Below are positions 1,537 to 7,409 of a stretch of 13,771 nucleotides of DNA, piece after piece; position 1 is the stretch's first letter, and each line of letters begins with the position of its first letter. Under the pieces are notes generated by a model. That model saw only the letters and a program-made list of their open reading frames with translations. It had not been told where the DNA came from and made no database searches. The translations under genes and the position numbers were made by a program. Origin of the DNA: a virus (lineage: Duplodnaviria; Heunggongvirae; Uroviricota; Caudoviricetes); IMG/VR virus record IMGVR_UViG_2778261544_000002; one strand, written 5' to 3'.

Positions 1537-4500
1537 TCAGCTAATCGTGATGCCTGCAGTGGCTTTCTTCATCACCACAACCAGCAAATCGCTGATACTT
1601 GCTGTGGGATACCAGCCATTTACCAGCCATGCCGATACAGAAAATTCCAGTGTCATGACACCACTGCCTGCAGGCATATCAATAACACCCGTATATATCA
1701 GCGTATTATCCAGAGCCGTTCGGTTATAAATTTCAGCACCGTTTTTTCGTACTATCAGACGGCATGAGGAGTAGATATCAGTATGATCTTGCTCATGTTT
1801 AGCGCCACTGAATGCCACCGCCGGGATAACAATTTGCCGGTCAAACGGCTGATCGTCATAAACCCTGACGGTAATGGTTCCTGATGGCCACCGCTCCGGT
1901 GCACGGGAGTCCCGGGGGAAAGCTTTGCCCACTGTTTTAACGAGATCGCCTTCAATCTGGTTCGCAGACAGTTTTCCCAGAACCCGGCAGTTCTCGTTAA
2001 TCGTGACGTTGTTGAGCGTCCCGGAGTTCGCATTCACGTTACCGCTGATATCGGCATTTTTCGCCGTCAGCCGCCCGTCCGGTGTCAGGGAAAATGCCGG
2101 AGGATTACCGCCGCTGGTAATGGTGGGAGCCGTCAGATATTTCAGGAACACTTCATTCATGTATATCTGATCGCCCTGCCCAACAAACATCGGCTTTGTG
2201 TTGCCATTCGCAGGATTAATCATCGCAATCCTGTCTGCCGCCAGCAGCACCTGACTCTGCATGCCGTCAGGGGTGTTTTCAATACCGGCACCAATACCCG
2301 CGATATAAAGGCGTCCGTCCTGCATCTGCTGCAGCTTCACAGCCCACATGCTGTTCAGGTTATTATTTGTATCAACCTGAACCTTCTGTATCTGCTGGAT
2401 CGCTGCACTCTGGTCTTCCAGTTTCTTATTGACGGTCTGCGTGATTTCATTACTGACATCCGTGATGGACGTTCTGATTTCCGCCAGGTCAGGCGCAAGC
2501 TGACCGTTATCAATCTGCGTCCACAACTCCTGAGCCAGATGGGTTTTCCCTATCTCTCCTTTGAAAAAATCCAGATAGCCGGATGCATCATCACTCGGCT
2601 GGCCAACAGCCTCCACGAATGCCGATTTGCCAACAGTATTCACACTGCGGATATAAAAATAATAATCATGGCCCGGCTTGATATTGATACTGGCAGCTAT
2701 CCAGTACAGCGCCGTGCCAAGATAGCGGGCTGTAGTTTCAACCTGCCTGATATCCGCAATCCGCTTTTCCAAGAACCAGAACTCAAACTGTACCGTCGGA
2801 TCATAAACGGCAAGATGGGGCGTGGCGGTTATCTGAAAATAGCCCGGCGTCAGCTCAATCCGCGACGGCGCTGCCGGTGCGGCAATCCGGAACGATACCG
2901 ATGCAGGATCGCCCTGCTGCCCCCAGGCATTTGCCGCCCGGACTGTCAGCCTGTAGCTTCCCAGCGCCAGCTGCCTGAAGCGGTATGTGGTTTCCGTCGT
3001 CCGGGCCGTGCTGACCAGCCGCTCACTGCCGTCATCCGCTGCCACGGTCAGGCGAAGCATAAAGCTCACACCCTTCACCACCTTCGGCGTATCCCAGCGC
3101 GCCAGCACCTGATATTCCCCGCTGTCTGCAGTGACTTCTGCGGTCAGGTGCTGCACCGCTGGCGTCGTGACACCATTCACCGTGCCACTCTGTTCGCCGT
3201 CAAAGTACGCCCCGTTATCCACGATGGCCTCTTTTTCCGGCACATGCTGCACGGCGGTGATGGCATACGTGCCGTCGTCGTTTTCACGGATACTCACGCA
3301 GCGGAACAGTCGCTGGCGCAGCGTCGGCAGCTTCAGCCCCCATACGCTGTATTCAGCAACACCGTCAGGAACACGACTCACTTTTACCTTCACGCCGTCG
3401 GTGACGGACTGAACCTCCACGCTGACCGGATTGCCACTTCCGTCAACCAGGCTTATCAGCGTGGTACCGGAGGATGGCAGCGTGATTTCACGGTCGAGCG
3501 TCAGCGTCCGGGTCTGGCTGTTCACCGCTAGCACACGACCACCGGTGCTGATACCGGCATAGTCATCATCACAGATTTCAATAACATCGCCCGGTACATG
3601 GCGAAGCCCTTCTGCGCCGACGCTGAAATCCACGGTCTGCGTTTCCAGCAGTTCCGTTTTAATCAGCCACAGCCCGGCGCGGTGTGCCTGCCCCCGGCTG
3701 GTACAGCCAAAGGCATCCATCTTCGTGACGTTACGACCGTAACGGAGAATAGCCTGCGTATCTTCAACAAGCTCTGTCGCCGTCTCCCAGCCGTTATTCG
3801 GGTCAATCCAGTTCACCTCAACGGCATTATGGCGGTCCTTCAGGGCGCTGAAGCTGTAGCGGAACGGCGCGCCATCATCCGGCATCACCACATTACTGCG
3901 GTTATAGGTCCACACCTTATCCGATGGCCGGTCCTGCACGAACGTCAGCGTCTGCCCGTTCCATACCGGCATACAGCGCATCGCCGAGCAGAAATCACTG
4001 AGCACATCCCACGCCTTACGCTGCGTGGTCAGGTAGGCATTACAGGTGATGCGCGGCTCCGTGCCGCCAAAACCGTCCGGCACTGACTGGTCGCAGTACT
4101 GGCCGATGACATACAGCGCCCATTTATCCACATCCGCCGCACCAAGACGTTTACCCATGCCGTAGCGCGGGTGGGTCAGCATATCCCACAGACACCAGGC
4201 CGGGTTGTTGCTGTATGCCGGCTTAAACGTTCCGTCCCAGATACCGCTGTATTGCCGCGTCTGCGGGTTATAGTTCGACGGCACCTGCAGAATGCGCCCG
4301 CGCAGATGATAATTACGGCTCACCTGCTGGCTGCCGAACTGCTCCGAGTCCACCTGCACGCCGACCAGTGCCGTGTTCGGGTAGCACTGTTTCACATCGA
4401 TAATTTCGGTGTATGACGACCAGAGCGTTTTGTTCTGCAGCTGGTCTGTAGTGCTGTCCGGCGTCATCCTGCGCATCCGGATACTGAACGGGCGCGGCGG

Positions 4501-5016
4501 CAGGTTACCCACCACCACCGAGGCCAGATACTGTGAGGTGGTTTTGCCTTTAATGGTGATGTCTTTTTCCGTCACCCAGCCACCGTTACGCTGTATCTGA
4601 ACCAGCAGGCGGACTTCCGATGGATTCCTGTCCCCCTTTGAGGTAGTTTCCACCAGTGCCTGCACACCGAAGGTAAAGCGCAGACGGTCGATGTTTGCCG
4701 ACGTGATGGTGCGGGTGATCGGCGTGTCATATTTCACTTCCGTACCCAGCACAGTCTCGGAGCCGGAGGATTCAAAACCTTCCGGCGGTGTCTGCTCCTG
4801 CTCACCTGCCCGGAACACCACCGTGACGCCGGAGATGTTGGTATTCCCCTCACTGTCCAGCACCGGCGTACTGTTCAGCAGCACGCTTTTTAATCCATCC
4901 ACCGGACCTTCAACCGGCCCTTCGCTGATGGCATCGATCACACTCAGCAACTGCGTGGACTTCAGGTTGTCCTTCGCTTCGCGCGGGGTATGCCCCTTAC
5001 TGCTTCCTTTACCCAT
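1537..5016 (-). CDS. J: Tail tip / host specificity protein J (central tail fiber)
   Basis: 1159-aa ORF, ATG at 5016..5014 preceded by GAGGA. N-terminus [34 protein letters not shown]... and roughly the first 800 residues are near-identical to lambda J as I recall it; the C-terminal third is homologous but diverged and about 27 residues longer. Confidence 0.95.
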
Positions 5017-5038
5017 TCCTCACGCTCCATAAATGACA

Positions 5039-5058
5039 AAACCGCCCGCAGGCGGTTT
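5039..5058 (-). other. Intergenic stem-loop between I and J
   Basis: 8-bp stem (plus 5039..5046 aaaccgcc pairing with 5051..5058 ggcggttt) with a 4-nt loop in the 59-nt I-J spacer. On the minus transcript it is followed by UGUCAUUUAU, which is only moderately U-rich, so function as a terminator is uncertain. Confidence 0.45.
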
Positions 5059-5076
5059 CACATAAAACATTTTGCA

Positions 5077-5724
5077 TCAGCGACCAATCACCACAACCTG
5101 ACCACCGTCCCCTTCGTCTGCCGTGCTGATCTCCTGAGAAACCACACGTGATCCCACGCGCATTTCACCGTACAGAACAGGCAAAACATTGCCCTGGGCA
5201 ACCATGTTATCCAGTGACGAGAAATACGTGTTCTGCTTACCGTTATCCGTACTGGTCGCTGTGGGCGTCCGGGCTTTCGGTGCCAGCATCTGCGCCACTC
5301 CGCCCAGGATCATACTGGCCCCTGCTGCATACATACCCGATACAGCCGCGGCCCCCAGCCAGCCCACAGGGTTCCACCATGCCACCGCAATCAGCGCCGC
5401 ACCCAGCACTGCCTGAAAAACACCGCCACTTTTAGCTCCCGCCAGACGCGGCACAATGTGGATCACGGCACCATTTGCCAGCGGCTCATTAAGACGGGCA
5501 GATAATTCATTTTCGCCTGCATCACGCCCGGCAATGCGTACCTGGTACCAGCCGTCGCTCAGTTTCTGACGAAACGCCGGGATCTGCATGGCCAGCGCCC
5601 GGATGGCTTCGGCTCCCGTTTTCACACGAAGGTCGATGCGGCGGCCAAATCGTTGTAAATCCCCGTAAAGGCAGATGCGTGCCATGCCCGGTGACGCCAG
5701 AGGGAGTGTGTGCGTCGCTGCCAT
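5077..5724 (-). CDS. I: Tail assembly protein I (ubiquitin-like N-terminal domain)
   Basis: 215-aa ORF, ATG at 5724..5722. N-terminus MAATHTLPLASPGMARICLYGDLQRFGRRIDLRVKTGAEAIRAL and C-terminus VAQGNVLPVLYGEMRVGSRVVSQEISTADEGDGGQVVVIGR match lambda I as I recall it. Overlaps the 3' end of K by 103 nt in another frame, as in lambda. Confidence 0.9.
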   Translation of the reverse strand: MAATHTLPLASPGMARICLYGDLQRFGRRIDLRVKTGAEAIRALAMQIPAFRQKLSDGWYQVRIAGRDAGENELSARLNEPLANGAVIHIVPRLAGAKSGGVFQAVLGAALIAVAWWNPVGWLGAAAVSGMYAAGASMILGGVAQMLAPKARTPTATSTDNGKQNTYFSSLDNMVAQGNVLPVLYGEMRVGSRVVSQEISTADEGDGGQVVVIGR

Positions 5725-6365
5725 TTGTCTGTATACCTCTCTCGTTTGCTCAGTTGTTCAGGAATATGGTGCAACAGCTCGCCGTCGCCACAGTAAATGG
5801 CGGCATGATTCGGCACCGATGAACCAAAACAGCACAGCAGCACATCGCCCGGCTGCGCCGCTGACAACGGCACCTGATACAGCCCTGTGGCCTCCAGATT
5901 ATCCAGATAGAGATTCTGACCGTTACGCCACCAGTCATCCTCGCGGTGAAAATCCGGCATCTCAATCCCAGCCAGATGGTAAGCATCCCGGAACAGCGTG
6001 TAACAGTCTGTCACCCCGTGCTCAAAGCGCCGTCCGGTAAGATGCGGCACACAGCGGAACTTGTGAATCGCTCCCCGACAGACCAGCCACCACGGCAAAT
6101 CACTCTGCACCTGCAGCCGCCGGTCGGCTTCACTCAGCCAGGGCAGACCACCGGGATGACTGTGGACCAGCGCGACAATCTCACCCTGCATTTCTGCCTG
6201 CAGCCAGTCCTCCGGAGCCATCCGGAAATAATCCTCCGGCTCACCGGAAATATTCACGCAGGGAAAATATCTTTCCCCCTCCGGCGCTCTCACCACGAAG
6301 CCGCACGACTCCGCTGGCGCACATCGCCGGGCGTGCGCCAGAATCGCTGATTCTGTCTCTGTCAT
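5622..6365 (-). CDS. K: Tail tip assembly protein K (JAB/MPN metalloprotease-like domain plus NlpC/P60 domain)
   Basis: Start chosen at ATG 6365..6363 (MTETESAILAHARRC..., 247 aa), 4 nt after the L stop. JAMM-type motif HSHPGGLPWLSEAD (HxH-x7-S-x2-D) and an NlpC/P60-like Cys/His set (GVTDCYTLF, NHAAIY, LLHHIP) are read directly. Alternatives: internal ATG at 6221..6219 (MAPEDW..., 199 aa) with GGAGGA 10 nt upstream; the ORF-track start at 6440 overlaps L by 70 nt and is rejected. Confidence 0.75.
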   Translation of the reverse strand: MTETESAILAHARRCAPAESCGFVVRAPEGERYFPCVNISGEPEDYFRMAPEDWLQAEMQGEIVALVHSHPGGLPWLSEADRRLQVQSDLPWWLVCRGAIHKFRCVPHLTGRRFEHGVTDCYTLFRDAYHLAGIEMPDFHREDDWWRNGQNLYLDNLEATGLYQVPLSAAQPGDVLLCCFGSSVPNHAAIYCGDGELLHHIPEQLSKRERYTDKWQRRTHSLWRHRAWHASAFTGIYNDLAAASTFV

Positions 6366-6369
6366 GGGA

Positions 6370-7068
6370 TTACTGCGAAAGTTTGTTAATGGAAAGGTAG
6401 CCGCCAAAATTGCCGACGTTATTGCGGAACTTGCAACCACTCAGGCATTTGCTGCATTTATCCTTCGTGATATCGGACGTTGGCTGGTCATATTCATCCG
6501 CGACAGCCGGGCCATCATAACCGCACTCATCGCCGCGGTAGATCCAGGTGCAGGTGTTGGCCAGCATGATGCGCCCCGGAAAAACAGCGCCATCCGTTTC
6601 CGTCGGTGTGGACAGCACAAAAGAGGCACTGACCGCGCTCAGTTCGCTGCACTGTTCGATGCGCCAGCGGCTGATCACCTCCTGCTCCGGATCGGCGTCA
6701 CTGTTTCCGTTGACGAAGTTCACCGCATCCAGAAAACGGGCGTAAACCTTACGCCGGACCACCGTTCCGCCGACCAGACTCTGCAGATCTTCCGCCATCC
6801 CGGTGACCATGCCGTACAGATTAGAGACTTTAAGCGTTGGCCTTGCACTGGCTCCTTTGCCGTTCATCTCAAATCCGCTTCCCTGAATGGGATAAGCCTG
6901 ATACTGCCGCCCCTGCCAGGTGACTGGTTCACCTTTTTCGTTCTGCTCATTACAGAAGAAATAACGATCTCCGCCGACCTCTGTCAGATCAATTTCCCAG
7001 AGCACGACCAGCGCGGATTGCTCCGTTTTAGTGCACTCATTGAGTGTTTCCTGCTGTATATCCTGCAT
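6370..7068 (-). CDS. L: Tail tip assembly protein L
   Basis: 232-aa ORF, ATG at 7068..7066 sharing one base with the M stop (TGATG). Same length as lambda L; Cys-rich C-terminal region (CGYDG ... CSKCLSGC) consistent with the metal/cluster-binding region described for lambda L. Confidence 0.9.
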   Translation of the reverse strand: MQDIQQETLNECTKTEQSALVVLWEIDLTEVGGDRYFFCNEQNEKGEPVTWQGRQYQAYPIQGSGFEMNGKGASARPTLKVSNLYGMVTGMAEDLQSLVGGTVVRRKVYARFLDAVNFVNGNSDADPEQEVISRWRIEQCSELSAVSASFVLSTPTETDGAVFPGRIMLANTCTWIYRGDECGYDGPAVADEYDQPTSDITKDKCSKCLSGCKFRNNVGNFGGYLSINKLSQ

Positions 7069-7409
7069 CAGTGAGTGACCTCTTCAAAGGTACAGTTAAA
7101 ATCGGTATACATGGCATTATCCGAAATGCTCCACTCCCTGCAGACAACCCGGACAGTCCTGTTGTGTTTTGGCGGACGCCACAAAAAAGCACGAATCCCG
7201 GCATGACGGGATAAAAAACTGTCCAGCGCGGCACGGGAATATTCATCTGTGACACGAAATACCGGTTTAAACGTTTTCAGATCCGCATTCAGACCACCAG
7301 CCCGTCGCTGTTCATATCCGTCACCAAACTTTACCGTAATAACTGATGGCTTTCGTGTCGTCTCCATCCCCTCTCGGGGGATCCAGTTAAAAACTTCAGG
7401 CTCAGGCAC
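7068..7409 (-). CDS. M: Minor tail protein M
   Basis: Conserved FGDGYEQR core and an FNW...GME N-terminal segment align with lambda M as I recall it. Start most likely GTG at 7409..7407 (113 aa), with GGAGGA 7 nt upstream and overlapping the H stop; alternative ATG at 7424..7422 has no Shine-Dalgarno. The ORF-track start at 7454 is a TTG. Confidence 0.7.
   Translation of the reverse strand: MPEPEVFNWIPREGMETTRKPSVITVKFGDGYEQRRAGGLNADLKTFKPVFRVTDEYSRAALDSFLSRHAGIRAFLWRPPKHNRTVRVVCREWSISDNAMYTDFNCTFEEVTH

What the first reader, a model, noticed from the sequence alone, without database searches (positions are those of the whole stretch)
5077..6365. Ubiquitin-like I paired with JAB plus NlpC/P60 K, and K probably starts 48 codons upstream of the usual annotation
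K carries a complete JAMM motif (HSHPGGLPWLSEAD) and a C-terminal NlpC/P60-like Cys/His set. If K started at the internal Met (MAPEDW, the start I recall being annotated in lambda), HxH would sit only about 20 residues from the N-terminus, too close for a complete MPN fold. The ATG at 6365, 4 nt after the L stop, restores about 48 residues including candidate upstream Glu residues. As I recall from comparative analyses, I is a ubiquitin-like beta-grasp protein; here it has Gly-Gly (AKSGG) after the N-terminal domain, so K-mediated processing of I is plausible.
Basis: partly seen in the sequence, partly recalled or inferred. Interest (0 to 1): 0.6.

Follow-up and report, generated by a model that had tools for sequence, protein, structure and literature searches.

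The report
Lambda-type tail proteins K and I
This is the ordinary lambda-type tail-tip gene pair: K, a 247-residue double peptidase, and I, a protein with a ubiquitin-like tag that K removes. The shorter 199-residue K in the lambda reference traces to one missing base in the 1982 sequence.

Summary
On the minus strand, K is one open frame of 247 codons from ATG 6365, 4 nt after the stop of L, to TGA 5622. It holds a complete JAMM motif (E19, H68-S-H70, S78, D81) and an NlpC/P60 triad (C121, H187, H199). I (5724-5077) has a ubiquitin-like domain ending in G100-G101.

The long K start is strongly supported:
- Pfam matches the whole JAB domain only in the 247-aa form.
- The first 48 residues are as conserved as the rest of the domain and contain the invariant catalytic Glu.
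- Substitutions there fall mainly on third codon positions.
- AlphaFold2 (pLDDT 97) places residues 1-48 in the MPN core.
- In 255 of 259 unique K genes from several phage groups, the start lies within -4 to +5 nt of the L stop.

The 199-aa K in the lambda reference is not a start-codon choice. J02459/NC_001416 lacks a G after nt 14266. Four other lambda-type records carry that G and encode the 247-aa protein.

The ubiquitin-like/JAB pairing was predicted in 2006. A 2025 conference report says gpK cleaves gpI. I rate the finding correct but already known, with interest of about 0.25.

The parts
6370..7068 (-). Gene L (minor tail / tail tip protein L, 232 aa). Its TAA stop at 6372-6370 lies 4 nt before the K start.
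   Evidence: ORF list; Pfam Phage_tail_L PF05100, 331.8 bits.
5622..6365 (-). Gene K, full length: 247 codons plus stop. It is 97% identical (239/247, no gaps) to the K of a lambda record that carries the extra G (PV340536).
   Evidence: The RefSeq records of mEp460 and of an E. coli prophage, and the GenBank records of phage 434 and lambda PV340536, all annotate the same 744-nt gene.
6222..6365 (-). K codons 1-48, the part missing from the 199-aa annotation: helix 3-15 and strands 21-27 and 30-36 of the JAB/MPN domain.
   Evidence: On its own it matches Prok-JAB profile positions 3-51 (24.1 bits, E 3.5e-5). Variable sites by codon position are 11/3/27. pLDDT is 97-98.
6309..6311 (-). Codon for E19, the JAMM catalytic glutamate (motif P17-A-E19-S-C21-G22).
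   Evidence: Invariant in 259/259 unique K genes. It aligns with the E-x-CG of the solved JAMM proteins 2KKS, 2KCQ and 5LDA.
6123..6164 (-). HSHPGGLPWLSEAD: the zinc ligands H68, H70 and D81, and S78, of the JAMM motif H-x-H-x7-S-x2-D.
   Evidence: H68, H70, S78 and D81 are invariant in 259/259.
6219..6221 (-). Internal ATG (M49), equivalent to the K start annotated in lambda. GGAGG lies 11 nt upstream.
   Evidence: This position is Met in only 71/259 unique K genes (L 115, I 43, P 29). Among 77 lambdoid DNAs it is ATA, CTG or ATC in 3.
5694..6035 (-). NlpC/P60 (C40) papain-like domain of K, residues 111-224, with C121 (6003-6005), H187 (5805-5807) and H199 (5769-5771).
   Evidence: Pfam PF00877, 49.2 bits. 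C121 and H187 are invariant in 259/259 and H199 in 257/259. Foldseek matches MepS/Spr, LytE and Acd33800.
5077..5724 (-). Gene I (215 aa from ATG 5724). It overlaps the 3' end of K by 103 nt in another frame (5622-5724).
   Evidence: It is 82% identical to lambda gpI. It matches the PDB chains of lambda gpI (8IYK, 8XCG) at E 3e-101.
5422..5685 (-). Ubiquitin-like (MoaD/ThiS-type beta-grasp) domain of I, residues 14-101.
   Evidence: Pfam Lambda_tail_I, residues 14-97. The AF2 model has low confidence, but its top Foldseek hits are all MoaD, Urm1, ubiquitin or SUMO (TM 0.66-0.70 on the target).
5422..5427 (-). G100-G101, the C-terminal Gly-Gly of the ubiquitin-like domain and the predicted K cleavage site (G101|V102).
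   Evidence: Family motif P92-x3-[G/A]-[S/A/R]-K98-x-[G/A]100-G101-[LVM]-[FL]-Q. G101 is present in 239/240 unique I proteins. In the lambda tail structure gpI is resolved from residue 101 onward (PMC11101478).
5080..5421 (-). Structural part of I, residues 102-215: two hydrophobic helices and a C-terminal beta region that plugs the tail tip lumen in lambda.
   Evidence: By homology to lambda gpI residues 101/134-223, seen in cryo-EM maps (PMC10721106, PMC11101478, PMC12617516).

Best explanation
The region encodes the lambda-type tail-tip assembly pair K and I.

K is a 247-residue, non-virion, two-domain peptidase. Translation starts at ATG 6365, 4 nt after the L stop. There is no Shine-Dalgarno sequence, so initiation is probably coupled to termination of L. 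Residues 1-105 form a complete JAMM/MPN+ zinc isopeptidase (E19, H68, H70, S78, D81). Residues 111-224 form an NlpC/P60 cysteine peptidase (C121, H187, H199).

I is made as a precursor with three parts: a MoaD/ubiquitin-like domain (residues 14-101) ending in Gly-Gly, two hydrophobic helices, and a C-terminal plug domain.

The JAMM domain of K cuts after G101 once I has joined the J/L tip complex. This removes the ubiquitin-like tag and leaves the plug part in the tail tip.

Shown here: the reading frame, the start, both domains and their catalytic residues, the fold of K, the conserved Gly, and the conserved L-stop/K-start junction. Taken from the literature: the cleavage itself (conference report), the absence of K from virions, and the position of the I C-terminal part in the tip. 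Inferred: the exact scissile bond, translational coupling, and the role of the NlpC/P60 domain, which is unknown.
For: - Pfam matches the whole JAB profile (positions 4-103 of 114, 52.9 bits) only in the 247-aa form. The 199-aa form scores 23 bits, below the cut-off of 25.
- In 106 homologs below 62% identity, residues 1-48 are 34% identical to the query, against 37% for residues 49-105. E19 is conserved in 95%, G22 in 97% and N38 in 96%. Position 49 is mostly Ile.
- A tblastn search that ignores annotation shows 1723 of 1751 phage records covering at least 80% of the 247 aa. In the sampled rows, all but the weakest match start at query residues 1-11, down to 27% identity.
- In 77 unique lambdoid DNAs, variable sites in codons 1-48 fall 11/3/27 by codon position, like the rest of K (16/6/33 and 22/9/65). 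ATG 6365 is present in 77 of 77.
- In 259 unique K genes from lambdoid, T1-like, HK97-like, Pseudomonas and Rhizobium groups, a start codon lies -4 to +5 nt from the L stop in 255. All JAMM residues and C121/H187 are invariant; H199 is present in 257/259.
- The AF2 model has pLDDT 97.4 and pTM 0.91.
- Foldseek matches P. furiosus JAMM1 5LD9/5LDA over 107-110 columns at rmsd 2.7-2.8. It also matches AMSH, CSN5 and Rpn11, and MepS/LytE for the C-terminal half.
- The PDB profile search aligns K from position 3, including the E-x-CG motif.
- For I: Pfam, G101 in 239/240, and MoaD/ubiquitin top fold hits.
- Literature: Iyer et al. 2006 predicted JAB cleavage at the terminal Gly (PMC1779556). A. [quoted passage not shown]
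Against: - There is no direct N-terminal or ribosome-profiling data for K in the material I could reach.
- ATG 6365 has no Shine-Dalgarno sequence, whereas the internal ATG 6221 has GGAGG 11 nt upstream. Some internal initiation therefore cannot be excluded.
- The cleavage is known to me only from a conference summary, not from a paper with data.
- The scissile bond is inferred. G96 is also well conserved (213/240), and the cryo-EM statement 'from residue 101' is not precise enough to choose between the two glycines.
- My AF2 model of I has low confidence (mean pLDDT 47.8; 54-69 in the ubiquitin-like domain).
Confidence: 0.88

Rival explanations
1. K starts at the internal Met (ATG 6221) and is a 199-residue NlpC/P60 protein, as in the lambda reference. 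On this view the upstream 144 nt are an untranslated spacer.
For: The J02459/NC_001416 annotation. GGAGG lies 11 nt upstream of ATG 6221. Some records copy this call, including OM418626, OR974322 and the 199-aa database clusters.
Against: The reference call follows from a missing G after nt 14266. Four other lambda-type records have the G and an open 247-codon frame. Only 4 of 122 phage records and 0 of 3945 E. coli genome records share the reference version. The 'spacer' shows third-position substitution bias and carries invariant E19, G22 and N38. Position 49 is not Met in 188 of 259 K genes. A 199-aa product would lack three secondary-structure elements of the MPN core.
Confidence: 0.03
2. 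Both forms are made in lambdoid phages: the 247-aa enzyme, and a shorter product from internal initiation at M49 that keeps only the NlpC/P60 domain.
For: ATG at codon 49 and the upstream GGAGG are present in 74 of 77 lambdoid DNAs (sequences).
Against: Three lambdoid sequences have ATA, CTG or ATC at codon 49. Other clades have L, I or P there. The GGAGG is explained by the E-P-E codons, and it can pair in a local hairpin at 6250-6233, although that hairpin is no more than chance would give. Residues 49-105 would be an unfoldable half of a domain.
Confidence: 0.08
3. The JAB domain of K mainly serves as an anti-defence deubiquitinase. It would strip ubiquitin-like proteins that host Bil-type systems attach to the central tail fibre, rather than process I.
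For: Proposed as speculation in the discussion of Hor et al. (bioRxiv 10.1101/2023.09.04.556158). K acts on the J-containing tip complex.
Against: K is nearly always followed by an I gene whose ubiquitin-like domain ends in an invariant Gly (313 of 320 loci had I; G101 in 239/240). That fits a built-in substrate. The 2025 report states that gpK cleaves gpI. The two roles are not mutually exclusive.
Confidence: 0.07
4. K starts further upstream, at GTG 6440 or TTG 6407 inside L, as the mechanical ORF list and some records suggest (BP-4795 at 882 nt, mEp515 at 828 nt).
For: The frame is open back to 6440. Two phage records annotate such starts.
Against: Homolog N-termini cluster within a few residues of M1. 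The start sits next to the L stop in 255 of 259 genes. In the 35 nt upstream of ATG 6365, 5 of 9 variable sites fall on L's third codon positions. Pfam Phage_tail_L covers L to residue 230 of 232.
Confidence: 0.02

Closest known systems
Bacteriophage lambda gpK (tail tip assembly protein K; TAPK of Iyer et al. 2006)
   Same: It shares 97% identity over all 247 residues with the K of a lambda record that carries the extra G. The gene order is the same (H-M-L-K-I-J-lom), and so are the JAB plus NlpC/P60 architecture and the 103-nt overlap with I.
   Different: Nothing of substance differs. The apparent difference (247 versus 199 aa) comes from a base missing in J02459/NC_001416.
Bacteriophage lambda gpI (tail tip assembly protein I; TAPI; PDB 8IYK, 8XCG, 9E7M)
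   Same: It is 82% identical. It has the same N-terminal Lambda_tail_I/ubiquitin-like domain ending in AKSGG, the same hydrophobic helices and the same C-terminal plug region.
   Different: It is 215 aa rather than 223 aa, because the segment between the two hydrophobic helices is 8 residues shorter.
Prokaryotic JAMM/MPN+ proteases that process ubiquitin-like proteins (P. furiosus JAMM1 with SAMP2, PDB 5LDA; Rpn11, CSN5 and AMSH in eukaryotes)
   Same: It has the same fold (TM 0.65 on the target, rmsd 2.7-2.8 over about 110 columns) and the full E...HxH...S..D motif. The substrate is a beta-grasp protein ending in Gly-Gly.
   Different: K is fused to a second peptidase domain. Its substrate is a linear fusion (tag plus structural protein), not an isopeptide conjugate. 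No E1 or E2 is present.
NlpC/P60 (C40) peptidoglycan endopeptidases (E. coli MepS/Spr, B. subtilis LytE/CwlO)
   Same: It has the papain-like fold and a Cys-His-His triad.
   Different: K has no signal peptide and was not found in virions, so a cell-wall substrate is unlikely. Its substrate is unknown.

Membership tests
JAMM/MPN+ metalloprotease (Pfam Prok-JAB PF14464) | Sequence match above the curated threshold over the whole domain | tested here: met
   52.9 bits against a cut-off of 25, profile positions 4-103 of 114, with the 247-aa form only.
JAMM/MPN+ metalloprotease (Pfam Prok-JAB PF14464) | Complete catalytic motif E-x(n)-H-x-H-x7-S-x2-D | tested here: met
   E19, H68, H70, S78 and D81 have the correct spacing. 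All are invariant in 259/259 relatives.
JAMM/MPN+ metalloprotease (Pfam Prok-JAB PF14464) | MPN fold | tested here: met
   AF2 pLDDT 97.4. Foldseek matches 5LD9/5LDA, AMSH, CSN5 and Rpn11 with probability 1.00.
JAMM/MPN+ metalloprotease (Pfam Prok-JAB PF14464) | Zinc-dependent cleavage after the C-terminal Gly of a ubiquitin-like protein | not testable with these tools
   Reported for lambda gpK/gpI only in a conference summary (PMC12908700).
NlpC/P60 (C40) papain-like peptidase (PF00877) | Sequence match above threshold, and the fold | tested here: met
   49.2 bits against a cut-off of 23, residues 111-224. Foldseek and PDB profile hits to MepS, Spr, LytE and CwlO.
NlpC/P60 (C40) papain-like peptidase (PF00877) | Catalytic Cys-His-(His/Asn/Gln) triad | tested here: met
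   C121 and H187 are invariant in 259/259; H199 is present in 257/259.
Lambda gpK orthologue (tail tip assembly protein K) | Position between L and I in a tail module, and high identity to lambda K | tested here: met
   Gene order lom-J-I-K-L-M-H on the minus strand. 239/247 identical to lambda K.
Lambda gpK orthologue (tail tip assembly protein K) | Required for tail assembly, absent from virions | not testable with these tools
   Known for lambda.
TAPI / Lambda_tail_I ubiquitin-like domain (PF06805; ThiS/MoaD-type beta-grasp) | Sequence match above threshold | tested here: met
   83.3 bits against a cut-off of 23.8, I residues 14-97.
TAPI / Lambda_tail_I ubiquitin-like domain (PF06805; ThiS/MoaD-type beta-grasp) | Beta-grasp fold | tested here: inconclusive
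   The model has pLDDT of only 54-69 in this domain. Even so, all top Foldseek hits are MoaD, Urm1, ubiquitin, NEDD8 or SUMO (best E 2e-3, TM 0.66-0.70 on the target). hhalign against MoaD was not significant. The PDB sequence search reached no ubiquitin-like protein.
TAPI / Lambda_tail_I ubiquitin-like domain (PF06805; ThiS/MoaD-type beta-grasp) | Conserved glycine at the C-terminal end of the domain | tested here: met
   G101 in 239/240 unique I proteins. G100 is G in 120 and A in 111.

The most novel reading that the evidence does not exclude
The second, fully conserved active site of K (the NlpC/P60 triad C121, H187, H199) has a proteolytic substrate of its own in tail assembly. The obvious candidate is the tape measure protein gpH. 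The protease that cuts gpH to gpH* and the cleavage site are both still unknown (PMC12617516). K would then be a two-substrate maturation protease of the siphophage tail tip. Nothing here tests this. It rests only on the invariance of the triad, the absence of K from virions, and the fact that only the JAB domain is needed to explain I processing.
Probability: 0.08. Interest if true: 0.6.

Novelty: already known. Interest (0 to 1): 0.25.

Why it matters
The biology is established. The ubiquitin-like I and JAB plus NlpC/P60 K pairing was predicted in 2006 and reportedly confirmed by experiment in 2025.

The practical value is a correction to the reference. The RefSeq and GenBank lambda genome, and by my recollection the UniProt gpK entry P03729, still show a 199-residue K that lacks the catalytic glutamate and half of the JAB domain. 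The cause is one G missing after nt 14266.

This has already misled published analyses. A 2020 review that used K at 199 aa and I at 190 aa reported only 'a peptidase domain' for K. It saw neither the JAB domain nor the ubiquitin-like domain (PMC7291167).

The NCBI annotation of I in E. coli prophages (182 aa, from a GTG start) truncates the ubiquitin-like domain in a similar way.

Tried and rejected
I used single distant K proteins instead.
The permitted shallow alignment gave a poor model.
- The PDB sequence search with the I profile found only gpI homologs and no ubiquitin-like proteins.
- I considered docking I into K using a natural K-I fusion (P0037). I dropped it because the structure tool returns no coordinates, so the distance from the Gly-Gly to the zinc site could not be read.
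- Literature searches for ribosome profiling or an N-terminal sequence of gpK found nothing usable. The Casjens and Hendrix lambda review is not held.
- The mass-spectrometry table of PMC10721106 gives only one gpI peptide at 9.9% coverage and does not say which, so it cannot show whether the tag is absent from virions.
- K-I fusion proteins in the databases are singletons with indels in the overlap. I treated them as errors or pseudogenes, not as programmed frameshifts.

Full report
**What is in the window**

The window carries a lambda-type tail module on the minus strand. The genes are lom (870-1469), J (1537-5016), I (5077-5724), K (5622-6365), L (6370-7068), M and H (7402-10635), followed by the tube and chaperone genes. 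It is 97% identical to prophages in E. coli chromosomes and 95% identical to temperate coliphages.

**Observation check**

- L ends with TAA at 6372-6370. Four bases later, ATG 6365 opens a 247-codon frame that closes at TGA 5622.
- HSHPGGLPWLSEAD is residues 68-81 of that frame. It would be residues 20-33 of a protein starting at the internal Met (MAPEDW, ATG 6221).
- I has AKSGG at residues 97-101.

Pfam finds Prok-JAB at K residues 4-98 and NLPC_P60 at residues 111-224. It finds Lambda_tail_I at I residues 14-97.

**Where K starts**

Six independent lines agree on ATG 6365.

1. Domain coverage. The 247-aa form matches Prok-JAB profile positions 4-103 of 114 at 52.9 bits. The 199-aa form matches only positions 63-103 at 23 bits, below the cut-off of 25. 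The 48-residue extension alone matches positions 3-51.

2. Conservation in distant relatives. An exhaustive HMMER search found 2752 relatives. In 106 full-length relatives below 62% identity, residues 1-48 are as conserved as residues 49-105 (34% against 37% identity to the query). E19 is present in 95%, C21 in 90%, G22 in 97%, N38 in 96% and F47 in 92%. Position 49 is mostly Ile.

3. An annotation-free check. A tblastn search against 50,697 phage genomes gave matches covering at least 80% of the 247 residues in 1723 of 1751 records. In the sampled rows, all but the weakest match begin at query residues 1-11, down to 27% identity.

4. Substitution pattern. In 77 unique lambdoid DNA sequences, the variable sites in codons 1-48 fall 11/3/27 on codon positions 1/2/3. 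The later parts of K give 16/6/33 and 22/9/65. ATG 6365 is present in all 77, whereas codon 49 is ATA, CTG or ATC in three.

5. Gene junction. I took stop-to-stop frames from 320 loci covering lambdoid, T1-like, HK97-like, Pseudomonas and Rhizobium phage groups. In 255 of 259 unique K genes, a start codon (ATG in 251) lies -4 to +5 nt from the stop of the upstream L gene. The JAMM glutamate follows 17-23 residues later in the 230 genes where the simple E-x-[C/S]-G text pattern was found. E19, G22, N38, H68, H70, S78, D81, C121 and H187 are invariant in all 259. Position 49 is Leu in 115, Met in 71, Ile in 43 and Pro in 29.

6. Structure. AlphaFold2 with a 104-sequence alignment gives mean pLDDT 97.4 and pTM 0.91. 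Residues 1-48 form helix 3-15 and strands 21-27 and 30-36, at pLDDT 97-98. Foldseek aligns 107-110 columns to the 130-residue Pyrococcus JAMM1 (5LD9/5LDA, rmsd 2.7-2.8). That is possible only if the N-terminal 48 residues take part. It also finds AMSH, CSN5 and Rpn11, and MepS/Spr and LytE for the C-terminal half. A profile search of PDB sequences aligns K from position 3 with solved JAMM proteins, matching E19 to their E-x-CG glutamate.

ATG 6365 has no Shine-Dalgarno sequence. Given how tightly the start is placed next to the L stop across all clades, I infer translational coupling. That step is inference.

**Why lambda shows 199 residues**

In J02459/NC_001416, the frame that opens at the ATG 5 nt after L's TAA reads MTQTESAILAHARRCAPAESCGF... 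and then runs into a stop after 76 codons. The annotated K lies in another frame.

Four other lambda-type records differ from the reference by exactly one base over 1481 nt. They are LC730321 (48,503 nt, one more than the reference), PV340536, KT232076 and lambda imm434 OM418626. The difference is an extra G after nt 14266 (GGAGGC-G-TATTTCC), and it restores a continuous 247-codon K.

The reference version is very rare:
- Only 4 of 122 matching phage records share the reference 80-mer. Two are the reference itself. The other two are an 'UNVERIFIED' strain record (OR474059) and an isolate record (OR974322) whose K and I coordinates match the reference exactly.
- None of 3945 E. coli genome records has it.
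- A MutaMouse genome paper lists '14266 C>CG' among variants fixed in all copies of its lambda gt10 transgene, without comment on K (PMC6760142).

The 199-aa K was therefore the only ORF the 1982 sequence allowed. The missing base is most simply a sequencing error, but I did not prove that.

Databases are now mixed:
- The RefSeq records of mEp460 and of an E. coli prophage, and the GenBank records of phage 434 and lambda PV340536, nt.
- OM418626 and OR974322 keep 600 nt.
- KT232076 nt.
- BP-4795 and mEp515 start inside L.

**I and its link to K**

In 240 unique I proteins from the same loci, the end of the N-terminal domain reads P92-x3-[G/A]96-[S/A/R]-K98-x-[G/A]100-G101-[L/V/M]-[F/L]-Q. P92 is present in 240/240, K98 in 238/240 and G101 in 239/240. 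The hydrophobic helix follows directly.

My AF2 model of I is poor (mean pLDDT 47.8). Its secondary structure does fit a beta-grasp, and every top Foldseek hit is MoaD, Urm1, ubiquitin, NEDD8 or SUMO. I therefore rate the fold as consistent rather than proven here.

The literature fills in the mechanism:
- Iyer, Burroughs and Aravind (2006) identified the ubiquitin-like domain of TAPI and the JAB plus NlpC/P60 domains of TAPK. They predicted cleavage at the C-terminal glycine.
- Cryo-EM studies see gpI only from residue 101 or from 134/135 onward. One virion study did not find gpK by mass spectrometry, and another did not resolve it in its maps.
- A report of the October 2025 phage conference says A. 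[quoted passage not shown]

**Most likely mechanism**

K is translated from ATG 6365. Its JAMM site cuts I after G101. The NlpC/P60 site is intact but its substrate is unknown.

**Rivals**

- The 199-aa-only reading is contradicted by the evidence above.
- A minor internal isoform cannot be excluded, but it is not conserved.
- An anti-Bil deubiquitinase role (Hor et al.) may be an additional function.
- Starts inside L are not supported.

**Verdict**

Most current annotations already use the long K. The useful by-products are the identification of the single-base cause of the short lambda K and the observation that I is now the more commonly truncated gene.

Noticed in passing
L001 (NC_001416) locus 1267, which is lambda nt 14266/14267; equivalent to window about 6231-6233: The lambda reference sequence lacks one G that is present in four other lambda-type records, in lambda gt10 (MutaMouse) and in every E. 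coli prophage copy. The missing base frameshifts K and explains the 199-aa annotation.
   Followed up: yes
window 5625-5724 (the I start region): The start of I is annotated in three ways: ATG 5724 (215 aa here, 223 in lambda), ATG 5685 (202 or 200 aa), and GTG 5625 (182 aa here, 190 in lambda). NCBI's annotation of E. coli prophages and of mEp460 uses the GTG start. That form matches Pfam Lambda_tail_I only from profile position 26 (52 bits against 83), so it loses the first two strands of the ubiquitin-like domain. Distant I homologs begin at the equivalent of M14. BP-4795 has CTG at position 14, which favours ATG 5724 in lambdoids.
   Followed up: partly
window 5622-5724: K and I overlap by 103 nt in different frames. 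Variable sites there show no third-position bias (8/10/13). The ATG of I is formed by the last base of K214 and the first two bases of the near-invariant W215 codon of K, so its presence may be partly a by-product of K's constraint.
   Followed up: partly
P0013, P0037, P0091, P0117, P0082, P0066 (database proteins): K-I and L-K 'fusion' proteins of 310-430 aa occur in the databases, nearly all as one- or two-member clusters (one has 11 members). The K-I fusion sequences I read show indels in the K/I overlap. These are probably assembly errors or decaying prophages, not programmed frameshifts.
   Followed up: partly
L086 (Morganella phage IME1369_01) 1839-2420: The annotated 'tail assembly protein I' is only 133 aa. 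The frame is open 65 codons further upstream and encodes the whole ubiquitin-like domain, from MEAQTVVRLQFAGYL to the GAKSGG motif. This is another truncated I annotation.
   Followed up: partly
window 6233-6250 (minus strand): A 7-bp hairpin (UUUCCGG-UGAG-CCGGAGG) contains the GGAGG upstream of the internal ATG 6221 and could mask it. The scan found no more such sites than in shuffled sequence, so this may be chance.
   Followed up: no
window 5030-5062 (minus strand), between I and J: A G+C-rich inverted repeat (AAACCGCC-TGCG-GGCGGTTT) followed by TGTCATTT sits in the 60-nt I-J spacer. The phage 434 record annotates a terminator between its I and J genes. My simple scan did not flag it.
   Followed up: no
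window 7402-10635 and 10676-11364: The tape measure gene H encodes 1077 aa here against 853 in lambda. The lambda slippery heptamer GGGAAAG is absent from the chaperone (G/T-like) gene junction in this window.
   Followed up: no
L091 (Vibrio phage pVa-7), L094 (Moraxella phage Mcat4), L092 (mEpX1): In some phages K is not directly followed by I. Opposite-strand genes or a small extra ORF lie between them, so the K-I adjacency is common but not universal.
   Followed up: no
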